This document shows positions 1 through 6,000 of a DNA stretch of 64,000 nt, one piece after another. The position numbers were made by a program. The stretch's first letter is position 1. Every line of letters begins with the position of its first letter. Location of the stretch: the NCBI RefSeq assembly GCF_055900595.2, contig NZ_CM148325.1. One strand, given 5' to 3'.

Positions 1-3000
1 TTAAAAACTTCCTGGACTACTGCCGCGAAGGTTTTTACAACAACACCATTTTCCACCGTGTTATCAACGGCTTTATGATTCAGGGCGGCGGTTTTGAGCC
101 AGGCATGAAGCAAAAAGCCACCAAAGAACCGATCAAAAACGAAGCCAACAACGGTCTGAAAAACACCCGCGGTACGCTGGCAATGGCCCGAACTCAGGCA
201 CCGCACTCTGCAACTGCACAGTTCTTCATCAACGTGGTTGATAACGACTTCCTGAACTTCTCTGGCGAAAGCCTGCAAGGTTGGGGCTACTGCGTATTTG
301 CCGAAGTGGTTGAAGGCATGGACGTGGTAGACAAAATCAAAGGTGTTGCAACCGGTCGTAGCGGTATGCACCAGGACGTGCCAAAAGAAGACGTTATCAT
401 TGAAAGCGTGACCGTTAGCGAGTAATCGTGGCGACACTCTTTATTGCAGATCTTCATCTCTGCGTGGAAGAACCGGCGATCACCGCCGGTTTTCTGCGTT
501 TTTTAGCGGGGGAAGCCCGCAAGGCCGACGCGCTGTATATTCTTGGCGATCTGTTTGAAGCATGGATTGGCGATGACGATCCCAACCCACTCCATCGCCA
601 GATGGCCGCAGCGATCAAAGCGGTATCCGATTCCGGCGTTCCCTGTTATTTCATTCATGGCAACCGTGATTTTCTGCTTGGCAAACGCTTTGCCCGTGAG
701 AGTGGCATGACGTTATTGCCGGAAGAAAAAGTGCTCGAACTTTATGGTCGTCGGGTGTTGATTATGCATGGCGACACGCTGTGCACCGATGACGCGGGTT
801 ATCAGGCTTTTCGCGCCAAAGTCCACAAGCCGTGGTTGCAAACGCTATTCCTCGCCCTGCCGTTGTTTGTGCGCAAACGCATTGCCGCGCGAATGCGAGC
901 GAACAGCAAAGAAGCCAACAGCAGTAAATCGCTGGCGATCATGGACGTTAACCAAAACGCGGTGGTCAGTGCGATGGAAAAACATCAGGTGCAATGGCTG
1001 ATCCACGGGCATACCCATCGCCCGGCGATCCATGAACTTATCGCCAATCAGCAACCTGCTTTCCGTGTCGTGTTGGGTGCCTGGCATACGGAAGGTTCAA
1101 TGGTGAAAGTCACGGCGGATGACGTTGAGCTGATTCATTTTCCGTTTTAAATACCCGCAACTTTGCTGATTTCACAGCCACGCAACCGTTTTCCTTGCTC
1201 TCTTTCCGTGCTATTCTCTGTGCCCTCTAAAGCCGAGAGTTGTGCACCACAGGAGTTTTAAGACGCATGTCTTCCCGCAATAATCCGGCGCGTGTCGCCA
1301 TCGTGATGGGGTCCAAAAGCGACTGGGCTACCATGCAGTTCGCCGCCGAAATCTTCGAAATCCTGAATGTCCCGCACCACGTTGAAGTGGTTTCTGCTCA
1401 CCGCACCCCCGATAAACTGTTCAGCTTCGCCGAAAGCGCCGAAGAGAACGGTTATCAGGTGATTATTGCGGGCGCAGGCGGCGCAGCGCACCTGCCGGGC
1501 ATGATTGCCGCCAAAACGCTGGTACCAGTGCTGGGCGTGCCAGTACAGAGCGCCGCACTGAGCGGTGTCGATAGCCTCTACTCCATCGTACAAATGCCGC
1601 GCGGCATTCCGGTGGGTACACTGGCGATTGGTAAAGCTGGCGCGGCAAACGCGGCGTTACTGGCAGCACAAATTCTTGCGACTCATGATAAAGAACTGCA
1701 CCAGCGTCTGAATGACTGGCGCAAAGCACAAACTGATGAAGTACTGGAAAACCCGGACCCGCGAGGTGCGGCATGAAACAGGTTTGCGTCCTCGGTAACG
1801 GGCAGTTAGGCCGTATGTTGCGCCAGGCAGGCGAACCGTTAGGCATTGCTGTCTGGCCGGTCGGGCTGGACGCTGAACCGGCGGCGGTGCCCTTTCAACA
1901 AAGCGTGATTACCGCTGAGATCGAACGCTGGCCGGAAACCGCATTAACGCGCGAGTTGGCACGCCATCCAGCCTTTGTGAACCACGATGTGTTCCCAATT
2001 ATTGCCGACCGTCTGACTCAGAAGCAGCTTTTCGACAAGCTTCACCTGCCGACCGCACCGTGGCAGTTACTTGCCGATCGCAGTGAGTGGCCTGCGGTGT
2101 TTGATCGTTTAGGTGAACTGGCGATTGTTAAGCGTCGTATTGGTGGCTATGACGGTCGCGGTCAATGGCGTTTACGCGCCGATGAAACCGCACAGTTACC
2201 GGCAGAGTGTTACGGCGAATGTATTGTCGAGCAGGGCATTAACTTCTCTGGCGAAGTATCGCTGGTTGGCGCGCGCGGCTTTGATGGCAGCACTGTGTTT
2301 TATCCGCTGACGCATAACCTGCATCAGGACGGTATTTTGCGCACCAGCGTCGCTTTCCCACAGGCCAATGCGCAGCAGCAGGCACAAGCCGAAGAGATGC
2401 TGTCGGCGATTATGCAGGATTTGGGCTATGTGGGCGTGATGGCGATGGAGTGTTTTGTCACGCCGCAAGGTCTGCTGATCAACGAACTGGCTCCGCGTGT
2501 ACATAACAGCGGTCACTGGACACAAAACGGTGCCAGCATCAGCCAGTTTGAGCTGCATCTGCGGGCGATTACCGATCTGCCGTTACCGCAACCGGTAGTG
2601 AATAGTCCGTCGGTGATGATCAACCTGATTGGTAGCGATGTGAATTATGACTGGCTGAAACTGCCGCTGGTGCATCTGCACTGGTACGACAAAGAAGTGC
2701 GTCCGGGCCGTAAAGTGGGGCATCTGAATTTGACCGACAGCGACACATCGCGTCTGACCGCGACGCTGGAAGCATTAATCCCGCTGCTGCCGCCGGAGTA
2801 TGCCAGTGGCGTGATTTGGGCGCAGAGTAAGTTCAGTTAACCTGGTACTCATATTCCTGCCGGATGCGGCGTGAACGCCTTATCCGGCCTACTAATCCGG
2901 TACCCATTGTAGGCCTGATAAGACGCGTCAAGCGTCGCATCAGGCATGGTGCGCCGATTACCGGATGCGGCGTGAACGCCTTATCCGACTACCAATCCGG

Positions 3001-6000
3001 TACCCATTGTAGGCCTGATAAGACGCGTCAAGCGTCGCATCAGGCATGGTGCGCCGATTACCGGATGCGGCGTGAACGCCTTATCCGACTACCAATCCGG
3101 TACCCATTGTAGGCCTGATAAGACGCGTCAAGCGTCGCATCAGGCATGGTGCGCCGATTACCGGATGCGGCGTGAACGCCTTATCCGACTACCAATCCGG
3201 TACCCATTGTAGGCCTGATAAGACGCGTCAAGCGTCGCATCAGGCATGGTGCGCCATATGCTGGATGCTCCCATCACGACAGCGAAATACAGGTCCCCGC
3301 TTCGCCCGCCAGCGTCTCTTCAATCCGCGATAACGCCCCAATCCACGCAGGTTTACCACGGCTTCTGACATAGCCACTCACCGCCGTTACCTTCGGTCCC
3401 ATCGCCCCATCGGCTTTGGCAAATGGCGCTAACTCATCCGGTGTGGCATGGCGAATGGCACGTTGCTGCGGCGTTCCCCAGTTTTCATATACCGCGTCAG
3501 CATCGGTGAGGATCACCAGTCCATCGGCATTAATCTGCTCGGCAAGCAACGCCGCGGCGAGATCTTTATCAATCACAGCTTCACTCCCTGCTCCGTCATC
3601 CGTCACCGGAACACCGCCGCCGCCACTGCAAATCACCACATGCCCCTCTTTGAGCAACAACTCGATGGCTTCACTGTCGAGAATTTTACGCGGTTGCGGA
3701 GATGCCACCACCCGGCGTAAATATTTGCCATCACGCTTCATTTGCCAGCCGTAAGTCGTTTCCAGTGCCTCTTGTTCTTCTGGCTGATAAACCGGGCCGA
3801 TAAACTTCTCTGGCTGCAAAAACGCCGGATCATCAGGCGAAACTTCAATGCGCGTCAGCACCGTCGTGACAGGCGGCATCTGCGGCTGTGCGCTCAAGCT
3901 CTGCGCCAGCATATAGCCAATCATCCCCTGGCTTTCCGCCACCAGCACATCCAGCGGATACGGTTCTACCTCTTTCCACGCCAGATTCTGTAACGCCAGC
4001 AGCCCCACCTGTGGCCCGTTGCCGTGAACAATCGCCAGCCGATAAGAACGGGCCAGGCGCGCCAGTGCGGGTACAGCACTGGCAATATTGCGATATTGAT
4101 TTTCTGCCGTCAGCGCCTCACCGCGCTGGAGTAAGGCATTGCCCCCAAGAGCTACAACCAGTGTTTTCATGGTGTTCCTTGTAATAATTGTTGACCAAGC
4201 CAGAACCCCAGCAGCGTATCTGCCCCTGACGTATGCCCCAGCGCCAGCAGCGAATCAATCGCCACAGCGGTACGTTTCGGGCAACTCAGAGCATGAACAA
4301 AGTGCAGGAGTGGCGAGGCGAAATATCCTTGCGCGGCATAACGTAAATAATTAACGCTCACCGCCGTGGTAACGAGTTGAAGATTGTCGGAACAGGCAAA
4401 AAACGGGCGACCGGAGCGCGCATCTAAAGCGCTATAATACCAGGCTGCCAGCAGCATTCCGCTCAACGTGTCATCATGACTCGGCGTTAATCCGGGGCCT
4501 TTACCCAGCCAGTGCCGCCAGTCGGTCTTAACGCCATTGAGCGCGGCCTGAAAACAGTGGCGAAACTGGCGTAATTCAGCAGGCAGCGGATCGCCTGCCG
4601 CCAACGCCAGCGGCCCGAAAAGCCCGGTTTCCTCCGCGCGTTGCATCCATGCCGCTGCAAGCGGTTGAGGATGCGCAGGCGGCGTAATACGCAGCAAACA
4701 ATAACGCTGTGGCTGTTTAACCGTGAAACGCCCGAGGCGAATCCCTTGAGCCACAACCTGTGGTCGTTCATTGCCGCATAATCCACCGCATAACGCATCG
4801 AATTGTGCGCGGCGAAGCACCCATCCTCCGGGACCGAAACCACTACCCTGACGATGCAGCGTTAACAATTCACCGCTTTCCGTCATCAGGTTAATCGCCC
4901 GCCGCCACACGCCCGCTAACCGCCAGGACTGGCGATAATTCGGTGCGCTACGGCTGGCAAGCAGAGGAAGGATGATCGTCATTGCGCGTTCCTCAACCAA
5001 TCCCCATGCTTTCAGCCAGAGCTTCCAGCGCCTGTTCAAAGCACGCCAGCGGTGCCCGCACAGTGCCTGCACCAATCTGCCCGATCCCCGCCTCTTTATG
5101 GGCGATACCCGTATTGATGAGTGGTGTAATGCCGGTTTCTACCACGCGACGAATATCCAGCCCCAGACACGCGCCCTGGAAATCCCAGCCAGGGATCTGC
5201 AACTGCATATTGCGCTCAAGGAAGATTTCTGCCATCTCTTCAGATACTGCTCTGGCTGCTTCCATACCACCCGCACCGACAAAGCGTGTTACGCCAGGGG
5301 CGGCGATCATTGCCGCACCACCGATACCAAAGGTTTCGGTAATCGCGCTATCGCCCATATCCGGGTTCGCCTGCTCCTGCGAGAAGCCGGTGAAAAACAG
5401 ACCTTGCGGAGTGTTAACTGGCGCAGTAAACCAGCGCTCGCCCAGCCCACTTACCCGAATCCCGAACATATTGCCGTTGCGGGTCATAGCCGTGACGATG
5501 CTGCCCGCGCGGATCATCGCGCCTGCATCCATCGCCGCCTTGCAATAGGCCATCGCGAGGTTGAGGAAGAACTGATCGGTCACGCTGAGGAAATCCATTA
5601 CTTCCGCGATGTGCTGTTTATTGTGATCGAGGCGGGCAATTTGCGGTGCCAGCGCGCGCATCAACAGTGCTGAGGATGCAATGTTGCGCTGATGGAACTC
5701 ATCGCCCATCGTAATGCCCTGTGCCATCATCGCGGTGAGATCGATACCGCGCTCCATGCGCCCCAGCGCCGCGCTTAATACTGGCATTAACACATCGCGC
5801 ATCCAGCGATGGCGAGTCAGGACATCTTCGCCGTAAGCGCCAAAACGCATCACTTTACCGATACCTTCGTTGAGGTTGCAGTACGCCCGGTTGCCGTCGG
5901 TCACGTTCTCGACCACCAGCATCGGCATACTGGCAGAAGTAATGCCACCCATTGGCCCGACGGCATTCACATGGTGACAAGGAATGAAGTTCACTTCCCC

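What the first reader, a model, noticed from the sequence alone, without database searches (positions are those of the whole stretch)
2861..3256. Unusually regular four-copy, 100-bp-period REP/BIME array downstream of purK
Most REP clusters here are one or two palindromic units; this one is four nearly identical 100-bp tandem units (first unit 'ccggcctactaatccgg', later units 'ccgactaccaatccgg'). Such arrays can act as mRNA stabilisers or gyrase/IHF sites and are recombination-prone.
Basis: seen in the sequence. Interest (0 to 1): 0.25.

Follow-up and report, generated by a model that had tools for sequence, protein, structure and literature searches.

The report
Ordinary BIME-2 repeat array after purK
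This is a textbook E. coli BIME-2 element: eight REP hairpins in four 100-bp units between the converging purK and ybcF genes, a well-known repeat whose copy number at this site differs between strains.

Summary
Window 2860-3255 holds 4.0 tandem copies of a 100-bp unit at 98% identity. Units 2-4 are identical, and unit 1 differs at three positions.

Each unit is a Y-type REP on the + strand, a 16-nt linker, a Z2-type REP on the - strand and a 14-nt linker. That is the published definition of a BIME-2. The best-studied BIME-2, K-12 REP325, has the same 100-bp period with 5.8 copies.

The array fills the gap between convergent purK and ybcF (carbamate kinase).

Among 5,426 complete E. coli genomes this site carries 0, 1, about 1.5 (K-12), 2, 3, 4 or 5 units. 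In one strain IS1397 sits inside a REP loop. The exact four-unit allele is in 8 genomes from at least three accession series, so it is not an assembly artefact. It derives from a two-unit allele by triplication of the second unit, whose Y hairpin has lost 2 bp at its foot.

There is no IHF site, no intrinsic terminator and no credible ORF. Rfam's naRNA4 model matches three times, but that model is simply a BIME-2 unit.

The likely roles are inferred from the family: RNA hairpins at the 3' ends of both transcripts, and a preferred gyrase site.

Verdict: already known, low interest.

The parts
2859..3245 (.). BIME-2 array: eight REPs in alternating orientation, four 100-bp units (TRF span 2860-3255)
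   Evidence: TRF period 100, 4.0 copies, 98% matches; unit alignment; REP scan.
2859..2892 (+). Y-type REP, canonical (GCCGGATGCGGCGTGAACGCCTTATCCGGCCTAC)
   Evidence: The RNA hairpin is -21.3 kcal/mol. It has the same sequence as the Y REPs at 24409 and 29996 in the window.
2893..2908 (.). Tail-to-tail short linker (16 nt, TAATCCGGTACCCATT). It recurs as a one-base variant (CAATCCGGTACCCATT) at 2993-3008, 3093-3108 and 3193-3208.
   Evidence: Coordinates follow. It is short, lacks an IHF consensus, and so fits the S-type position of a BIME-2.
2909..2945 (-). Z2-type REP (GCCTGATGCGACGCTTGACGCGTCTTATCAGGCCTAC). Identical copies lie at 3009-3045, 3109-3145 and 3209-3245.
   Evidence: The hairpin is -21.8 kcal/mol on the + strand RNA and -21.3 on the - strand RNA.
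2946..2959 (.). Head-to-head linker (ATGGTGCGCCGATT). It recurs at 3046-3059 and 3146-3159.
2960..2992 (+). Degenerate Y' REP (ACCGGATGCGGCGTGAACGCCTTATCCGACTAC). Identical copies lie at 3060-3092 and 3160-3192.
   Evidence: The stem is 2 bp shorter at the foot: -15.3 against -21.3 kcal/mol as RNA, and -7.3 against -11.3 as DNA. The same Y' is present in two-unit alleles of other strains.
3260..3268 (+). Remnant of a further Y head (GCTGGATGC; GCCGGATGC in O157 and K-12-like alleles) at the right edge of the array
   Evidence: Comparison of alleles.
1773..2840 (+). purK, whose transcript runs into the array. There are 18 nt between its stop codon and the first REP stem.
   Evidence: ORF list; RefSeq annotation of the identical locus.
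3274..4170 (-). ybcF (carbamate kinase), convergent with purK. There are 28 nt between its stop codon and the last Z2 REP.
   Evidence: ORF list; RefSeq annotation.
2912..3190 (-). Three above-threshold matches to Rfam RF02564 naRNA4 (2912-2990, 3012-3090, 3112-3190). Each is a Y'-linker-Z2 head-to-head pair.
   Evidence: 73.1 bits against a gathering score of 59.5.

Best explanation
The feature is a BIME-2, the multi-copy class of E. coli bacterial interspersed mosaic elements. It has four 100-bp units, each a Y REP and an inverted Z2 REP joined by short linkers. It occupies the 433-bp gap between the convergent purEK and ybcF transcription units.

Shown here:
- The anatomy matches a BIME-2.
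- The site is a copy-number hotspot in the species.
- The four-unit allele derives from a two-unit allele (u1 + u') by triplication of u'.
- A sister allele carries a duplicated u1 instead. These are the two products expected when misaligned 100-bp units exchange on either side of the u1/u' marker.

Inferred:
- The expansion arose by homology-driven unequal crossing-over or replication slippage. The amplified unit carries a damaged Y hairpin, so a perfect REP was not needed.
- RayT (TnpA-REP), which is intact in a genome with this exact allele, is the presumed ancient seeding enzyme and an alternative amplifier.

Inferred from published work on the family, not tested at this locus:
- As RNA, each incoming transcript folds into a row of strong hairpins. 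These hairpins block 3'-5' exonucleases and attenuate read-through, partly through Rho, which insulates the two convergent operons.
- As DNA, the Y REPs are preferred gyrase cleavage sites where positive supercoils from convergent transcription accumulate.

Copy number itself is probably near-neutral.
For: Anatomy: eight REPs alternate Y(+) and Z2(-) with linkers of 16 and 14 nt. This matches the definition quoted from Ton-Hoang et al. [quoted passage not shown] The same source says tandem copies at one locus are well conserved and that copy number varies between strains.

Comparison with REP325: it has the same 100-bp period (5.8 copies, 96%). Its unit matches window u1 at 86 of 101 positions, with the differences mostly in the linkers.

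Allele series at this locus: no BIME in FDAARGOS_1282; 1 unit in O157 and Nissle; Y-Z2-partialY-Z2 in K-12; u1+u' in 2013C-4282; u1+u1+u' in EC42405; u1+3u' in the window; 5 units in TUM13770.

A systematic sample of 60 genomes gave 25 one-unit, 21 K-12-type, 3 two-unit, 7 five-unit, 2 without a BIME, 1 split by an IS, and the four-unit top hit. Eight genomes carry the identical four-unit allele.

Structure: individual hairpins are -15 to -22 kcal/mol. The whole array folds at -214 kcal/mol (z = -9.3) on the + strand and -208 kcal/mol (z = -7.5) on the - strand. No intrinsic terminator lies in 2600-3500, so the REP hairpins are the only strong 3' structures.

Context: all four BIME loci in the window lie between convergent ORFs.

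Literature:
- Gyrase cleavage sites are over-represented in BIME-2 and fall mainly in y REPs (Sutormin 2019).
- REP325 acts as a partly Rho-dependent terminator and as an mRNA stabiliser, and convergent gene pairs with a REP are more highly expressed (Harris et al. 2026 preprint).

RayT: rayT is intact in Z0117EC0005, which carries the identical array.
Against: No functional data exist for this locus.
- purK and ybcF do not appear in the gyrase cleavage supplements that are held as text.
- The Harris preprint reports that REPs do not uniformly lengthen mRNA half-lives.
- Three of the four Y hairpins are weakened by about 6 kcal/mol. This may reduce both the RNA and the gyrase effects.
- About 3% of sampled genomes have no BIME at this site, so it is dispensable.
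- The amplification mechanism (RecA or slippage against RayT) cannot be resolved from sequence.
Confidence: 0.9

Rival explanations
1. The array is a cluster of naRNA4-type nucleoid-associated non-coding RNA genes. Its - strand transcripts would be processed into two-hairpin RNAs that, together with HU, bridge cruciform REP DNA and condense the nucleoid.
For: There are three matches to Rfam RF02564 naRNA4 above the gathering score (73.1 against 59.5 bits) on the - strand.
Against: The Rfam model is in effect a generic Y/Z2 head-to-head pair. It also matches the plain two-REP BIME at 29949-30026, with a higher score of 83.6.

The naRNA4-sense strand is the 3' UTR of ybcF. In K-12 RNA-seq, ybcF is weakly expressed (baseMean 73 against 1,170 for purK).

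A 2026 preprint that shares an author (S. Adhya) with the original naRNA4 paper reports that REP325 and naRNA4 do not measurably compact the nucleoid. It also reports no stable HU-DNA-RNA ternary complex and no REP-REP long-range contacts.
Confidence: 0.04
2. Copy number at this site is adaptive. Expansion to 4 or 5 units was selected in particular lineages as a dial on purEK or ybcF expression, or on local supercoiling.
For: Two lineages expanded independently using different linker sequences: 4 units here and 5 units in the TUM13770-type allele. The five-unit allele is common, at 7 of 60 sampled genomes. REPs have been proposed as tunable expression dials.
Against: Units 2-4 are identical, so the expansion is very recent. 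It is confined to 8 of 5,426 genomes in one close lineage, which is what drift of an unstable tandem repeat would give. The amplified unit carries the weaker hairpin. Most genomes carry 1 to 1.5 units, and some carry none.
Confidence: 0.1
3. The four copies are an assembly artefact, that is, an expansion or mis-join of a shorter repeat.
For: A 400-bp array of near-identical 100-bp units is hard to size from short reads alone.
Against: Eight complete genomes are 100% identical over the whole 1,301-bp query including the array. They come from different hosts and from three accession series: CP098223 (a dog isolate from South Korea), six CM1285xx-CM1286xx human isolates, and AP043644. Intermediate two- and three-unit alleles with the same marker bases exist in other strains.
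Confidence: 0.01
4. It is an IHF-binding BIME-1 (a RIB/RIP element).
For: BIME-1 elements also lie at the 3' ends of operons.
Against: The second REP type here is Z2, not Z1. The tail-to-tail linker is 16 nt rather than the long L motif. No WATCAANNNNTTR match falls in the array; there are 3 in the whole window, all elsewhere. BIME-1 elements occur as single copies.
Confidence: 0.01
5. The array encodes a small protein (ORF 2864-3112, 82 aa).
For: An ATG-initiated ORF of 82 codons spans units 1-3.
Against: The 100-bp period is not a multiple of 3, so successive units are read in different frames. The product is arginine-rich with no repeat structure. No Pfam family reaches its threshold; the best is 13.2 bits against a cut-off of 22.7. 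The ORF is absent from one-unit alleles, and RefSeq annotates no gene there.
Confidence: 0.01

Closest known systems
REP325, the BIME-2 array between yjdM and yjdN in E. coli K-12 (source of naRNA4)
   Same: It has the same Y and Z2 REPs, the same alternating orientation and the same 100-bp period (5.8 copies at 96%). Its unit is identical to window u1 at 86 of 101 positions. The same Rfam model matches both.
   Different: REP325 lies between tandem genes inside an operon, whereas this array lies between convergent genes. The linker sequences differ. REP325 has 12 hairpins against 8 here. Three of the Y hairpins here have a shortened foot.
The K-12 BIME at the same purK-ybcF site, and the other alleles of this locus
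   Same: They are orthologous: same flanking genes, same first unit (92 of 101 identical to K-12 u1) and the same REP types.
   Different: K-12 has Y-Z2-partialY-Z2 in a 191-nt intergenic region. The window has four full units in 433 nt. Other strains have 0, 1, 2, 3 or 5 units, or an IS1397 insertion.
BIME-1 / RIB-RIP elements (IHF-binding)
   Same: They are also built from a Y REP and an inverted second REP at the 3' ends of transcription units.
   Different: BIME-1 uses Z1, has a long L linker with an IHF site, and is single-copy. None of these applies here.
REPIN/RAYT systems (for example in Pseudomonas fluorescens)
   Same: Both involve pairs of inverted REPs associated with a single-copy domesticated Y1 transposase. 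rayT is intact in a genome that carries this allele.
   Different: REPINs are dispersed as doublets. This array grew locally as a head-to-tail tandem, most simply by homologous misalignment (inference).

Membership tests
BIME-2 | Built from Y-type and Z2-type REPs | tested here: met
   There are four Y or Y' REPs and four Z2 REPs. The REP portions are nearly identical to those of K-12 REP325.
BIME-2 | REPs alternate in orientation: tail-to-tail across a short (S-position) linker and head-to-head across a flanking linker | tested here: met
   The order is Y(+) / 16 nt / Z2(-) / 14 nt, repeated.
BIME-2 | Multiple tandem copies, well conserved within a locus, with copy number varying between strains | tested here: met
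   4.0 copies at 98%. Other genomes have 0 to 5 units at this site.
BIME-2 | Linkers match the named S and s/l/r motif consensus sequences | not tested
   The consensus sequences of these motifs were not available in the texts I could read. Only linker length and position were compared.
BIME-2 | Bound and cleaved by DNA gyrase in vivo, mainly in Y REPs | not testable with these tools
   This is literature only. The supplements held as text do not mention purK or ybcF.
REP (GTAG-tagged palindromic unit, RayT substrate) | An imperfect palindrome of 30-40 nt with a conserved GTAG/CTAC at the foot | tested here: met
   All eight REPs are 33-37 nt and end in CTAC on their own strand. They fold as imperfect hairpins. 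Y' keeps the CTAC but loses 2 bp at the foot.
REP (GTAG-tagged palindromic unit, RayT substrate) | The cognate rayT (tnpA-REP) gene is present in the same genome | tested here: met
   rayT is intact (498 nt) in Z0117EC0005, whose locus is 100% identical to the window. The window belongs to that lineage. rayT is not inside the window. It is present in 3,574 of 5,426 genomes.
BIME-1 / RIB-RIP | Z1 REP, plus a long L linker carrying an IHF consensus | tested here: not met
   The REPs are Z2, the linker is 16 nt, and no WATCAANNNNTTR match lies in the array.
Rfam RF02564 naRNA4 | Covariance-model score at or above the gathering threshold | tested here: met
   73.1 bits against 59.5, three times on the - strand. 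The model also matches an ordinary two-REP BIME at 29949-30026.
Rfam RF02564 naRNA4 | A discrete processed RNA that binds HU and acts on the nucleoid | not testable with these tools
   The function itself is disputed.
Intrinsic (Rho-independent) terminator | A GC-rich hairpin followed by a U tract | tested here: not met
   No terminator-like sites lie in 2600-3500 on either strand.

The most novel reading that the evidence does not exclude
The number of BIME-2 units between purK and ybcF may be a selected, lineage-specific setting rather than drift. Independent expansions occurred here (4 units, with a weakened Y' hairpin) and in the five-unit lineage. These could tune how strongly the two convergent operons are insulated from each other, through mRNA 3'-end protection, Rho-assisted attenuation and gyrase loading. 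The natural allele series (0, 1, 1.5, 2, 3, 4, 5 units) would then be a ready-made dose series for testing what BIME-2 copy number does.
Probability: 0.1. Interest if true: 0.35.

Novelty: already known. Interest (0 to 1): 0.08.

Why it matters
It matters little as a discovery. BIME-2 arrays, their 100-bp periodicity, their strain-to-strain copy-number variation and their targeting by IS1397 have been described since the 1990s. This exact allele is already in public genomes.

Its modest value is practical. The locus offers a clean natural series of 0 to 5 units in otherwise orthologous contexts. That series could be used to test the still-debated roles of REP arrays as mRNA stabiliser, attenuator or gyrase site.

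It is also a warning for annotation and assembly. Rfam calls three 'naRNA4 genes' here that are simply repeat units.

Tried and rejected
- Intrinsic terminator and promoter scan of 2600-3500: no terminator, and no promoter in the array.
- IHF consensus search: none in the array.
- Coding potential of the 82-aa ORF: no Pfam family above threshold and a frame-shifting period.
- Locus-specific gyrase data in the Sutormin et al. supplements: no mention of purK or ybcF.
- Locus-specific data in the RepRanger paper: none.
- The Harris preprint supplements: only whole-gene expression values for purK and ybcF were found.
- One alignment used wrong coordinates and strands and was discarded. It was replaced by the rotation-corrected pairwise comparison.
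- Two literature look-ups failed on a term-length rule.
- The element is non-coding and was fully placed by the E. coli genome collection.
- I could not read Espeli & Boccard 1997 or Bachellier et al. 1997. Statements about them rest on the citing papers and on my own knowledge.
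Full report
**1. 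The observation**

Tandem Repeats Finder gives a single strong array at 2860-3255. It has period 100, 4.0 copies, 98% matches and score 769. Nothing else in the window scores above 106.

Aligning the four units shows that units 2-4 are identical. Unit 1 is one base longer and differs only at CCGGCCTACT against CCGA-CTACC. The last unit runs into unique sequence after ...GGTGCGCC.

**2. Anatomy**

A REP pattern scan resolves the array into eight palindromic units.
- Y-type REPs lie on the + strand at 2859-2892, 2960-2992, 3060-3092 and 3160-3192.
- Z2-type REPs lie on the - strand at 2909-2945, 3009-3045, 3109-3145 and 3209-3245.

Y and Z2 are joined tail-to-tail by a 16-nt linker and head-to-head by a 14-nt linker. 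A remnant of a fifth Y head (GCTGGATGC, 3260-3268) sits at the right edge, seen by comparison with other alleles.

The first Y is canonical. The other three (Y') begin with A instead of G and read CCGACTAC instead of CCGGCCTAC at the foot. This removes two base pairs.

Predicted RNA hairpin energies are -21.3 kcal/mol for Y, -15.3 for Y' and -21.8 for Z2. Values on the opposite strand are similar. As DNA the values are -11.3, -7.3 and -12.8.

The whole array folds far better than shuffled sequence on both strands, with z = -9.3 and -7.5.

**3. Context**

The array fills the gap between purK (1773-2840, +) and ybcF, a carbamate kinase (3274-4170, -). These genes are convergent (RefSeq annotation).
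- 18 nt separate the purK stop codon from the first stem.
- 28 nt separate the ybcF stop codon from the last stem.

Both distances exceed the roughly 15-nt range in which REPs have been reported to stall terminating ribosomes. That range is from my own knowledge of Liang, Rudd and Deutscher 2015; the phenomenon is mentioned.

No intrinsic terminator or promoter-like site lies in the array. The three other REP clusters in the window are each a single Y/Z2 pair, and each also lies between convergent ORFs.

**4. What it is**

Ton-Hoang et al. [quoted passage not shown] They add that tandem copies at one locus are well conserved and that copy number at a locus varies between strains.

Every sequence-level criterion is met here.

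The model BIME-2, K-12 REP325, has exactly the same 100-bp period (5.8 copies at 96%). Its unit matches window unit 1 at 86 of 101 positions, with the differences mostly in the linkers.

It is not a BIME-1/RIP element. The second REP is Z2, the linker is short, and no IHF consensus falls in the array.

The 82-codon ORF across units 1-3 is not credible. The period is not a multiple of three, and RefSeq annotates nothing there.

**5. Comparison across E. coli**

The window is E. coli. Its closest relatives are strains E500002, Z0117EC0005 and AST85.

A search of 5,426 complete genomes found the locus in 5,425. The alleles I sequenced through are listed below.

| Strain | Array at this site | Intergenic length |
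|---|---|---|
| FDAARGOS_1282 | No BIME; a different 149-nt sequence | 149 nt |
| O157:H7 PA20, Nissle 1917, 06-00048 | One unit | 129-135 nt |
| K-12, VE-T2 | Y-Z2-partialY-Z2 | 191 and 201 nt |
| 2013C-4282, MFDS1022581 | Two units, u1 + u' | 233 nt |
| NRZ96052a | Two units of another linker type | 229 nt |
| EC42405 | Three units, u1 + u1 + u' | 334 nt |
| The window, Z0117EC0005 | Four units, u1 + 3u' | 433 nt |
| TUM13770, FDAARGOS_1266 | Five units; different linkers and several inter-unit differences | 530 nt |

In strain A20, an IS1397 sits in the loop of the fourth Y REP of a five-unit array. This is the known target specificity of that element.

A systematic 60-genome sample used a flank-only query, and alleles were assigned by span.

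| Allele class | Genomes of 60 |
|---|---|
| One unit | 25 |
| K-12 type | 21 |
| Five units | 7 |
| Two units | 3 |
| No BIME | 2 |
| Split by an IS | 1 |
| Four units (the top-ranked hit) | 1 |

Eight genomes carry the identical four-unit allele. Seven carry a two-unit allele and one a three-unit allele with flanks closest to the window's; the three I sequenced through (2013C-4282, MFDS1022581, EC42405) carry the window's u1/u' markers.

**6. Origin of the four-unit allele**

The Y' marker and the G-to-A change at the unit junction are already present in two-unit alleles. The flanks of those strains are about 2% diverged from the window. So the degenerate unit is old and the triplication is recent, because the three copies are identical.

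Suppose u' on one sister chromosome mis-pairs with u1 on the other.
- An exchange downstream of the marker gives u1-u'-u'. A further round of the same process gives the window's allele.
- An exchange upstream of the marker gives u1-u1-u'. EC42405 has that arrangement.

Both products exist, which fits simple homologous misalignment: unequal crossing-over or replication slippage. This is an inference.

RayT-mediated amplification, as modelled by Ton-Hoang et al., is not excluded. rayT is intact in Z0117EC0005. It is present in 3,574 of 5,426 genomes, in line with 74 of 110 in the paper.

**7. How it most likely works**

Nothing was measured at this locus. What follows is transferred from the family.

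At the RNA level, REP325 acts as a partly Rho-dependent attenuator and as a stabiliser of the upstream mRNA, and it yields a ladder of hairpin-ended transcripts. About 30% of convergent intergenic regions (207 of 704 gene pairs) contain a REP. Convergent gene pairs with a REP are more highly expressed. About 40% of REPs between convergent genes lie in mapped bidirectional terminators.

Here both transcripts enter a row of eight strong hairpins with no U tract. I therefore expect 3'-exonuclease blocking and attenuation of convergent read-through. This would matter mainly for purEK, which is about 16-fold more expressed than ybcF in K-12 (baseMean 1,170 against 73).

At the DNA level, gyrase cleavage sites are over-represented in BIME-2 and fall mostly in y REPs. 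They also persist when transcription is inhibited. [quoted passage not shown] A convergent junction is where positive supercoils accumulate.

Two points argue that neither role is essential and that unit number is probably near-neutral. Some strains lack the element entirely, and the amplified unit has the weaker hairpin.

**8. The Rfam naRNA4 matches**

RF02564 matches three times above its gathering score on the - strand. Each match is a Y'-linker-Z2 pair.

The same model matches the ordinary BIME at 29949-30026 even better, so it recognises BIME-2 units in general.

The proposed nucleoid-condensing role of naRNA4 is contradicted by a 2026 preprint that shares an author (S. Adhya) with that paper. 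I therefore treat this as a naming coincidence and not as evidence of a gene.

**9. Verdict**

The element is a known kind, at a known polymorphic site, and the allele is already in public genomes. It is not an assembly artefact. Novelty is 'already known' and interest is low.

Noticed in passing
L015 (E. coli A20, NZ_CP028755.1) 3941-5908; IS1397 transposase CDS at 4327-5675: At the same purK-ybcF site, an IS3-family IS1397 is inserted in the loop of the fourth Y REP of a five-unit BIME-2 (GCCGGATGCGGCGTAAA | IS | AAACGCCTTATCCGGCC). This is a clean natural example of the element's REP-loop specificity. The flank-only search returned 5,437 places in 5,425 records, so roughly a dozen records have a second place, some of which may be similarly interrupted loci.
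   Followed up: partly
L008 (FDAARGOS_1282) 742-890; also spans of 1016-1017 bp (H102, H130): About 3% of sampled genomes have no BIME between purK and ybcF. They carry a different 149-nt sequence with a G/C-rich palindromic core (CCCTCTCCCCACAGGGGCGAGGGGA). It looks like a boxC-type intergenic repeat, but that resemblance is from memory and was not tested. Two unrelated repeat families therefore alternate at one site.
   Followed up: no
window 24409-24494, 29946-30029, 33007-33092: There are three further Y/Z2 REP pairs, each between convergent ORFs. The one at 33007 starts 6 nt before the end of ORF 32554-33012, so that gene's stop codon lies inside the REP. This is the class reported to stall terminating ribosomes. 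The pair at 29949-30026 matches Rfam naRNA4 at 83.6 bits.
   Followed up: partly
window 2841-3273 compared with L011 (2013C-4282): The two-unit allele of 2013C-4282 has all 233 intergenic bases identical to the corresponding window sequence. Yet the adjacent purK and ybcF segments differ at 17 of 741 and 13 of 727 positions. About 5 differences would be expected in 233 nt. Possible causes are a recombination mosaic, gene conversion among REPs, or constraint. This is unexplained.
   Followed up: no
Z2 REPs of all alleles at this locus: One pair of the Z2 inner stem occurs as C-G (14 copies), T-A (6 copies) and C/A on the + strand, which is a G-U wobble on the - strand (10 copies). This is a compensatory series through a wobble that pairs only in the - strand reading.
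   Followed up: partly
window 11356-11422 (-): An Rfam match to the enterobacterial sRNA STnc480 (RF02068): 87.1 bits against a gathering score of 72.
   Followed up: no
window 32195-32290: An imperfect 33-bp tandem repeat (2.9 copies, 75% matches) lies inside ORF 31640-32557 (305 aa). The period is in frame (11 codons), so it is probably a coding repeat.
   Followed up: no
window about 46100-63800: This is a large region annotated in relatives as an Ig-like-domain / BapA-related (SiiEA) adhesin next to TolC-family and type I secretion genes. It is highly variable between strains: only three genomes are at least 99% identical over it, and many fall to 80-95%.
   Followed up: no
E. coli genome collection: rayT (the REP-associated tyrosine transposase gene) is detectable in only 3,574 of 5,426 complete genomes (66%). 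This matches the 74 of 110 reported in 2012. I did not test whether BIME copy-number dynamics differ between rayT-positive and rayT-negative lineages.
   Followed up: no
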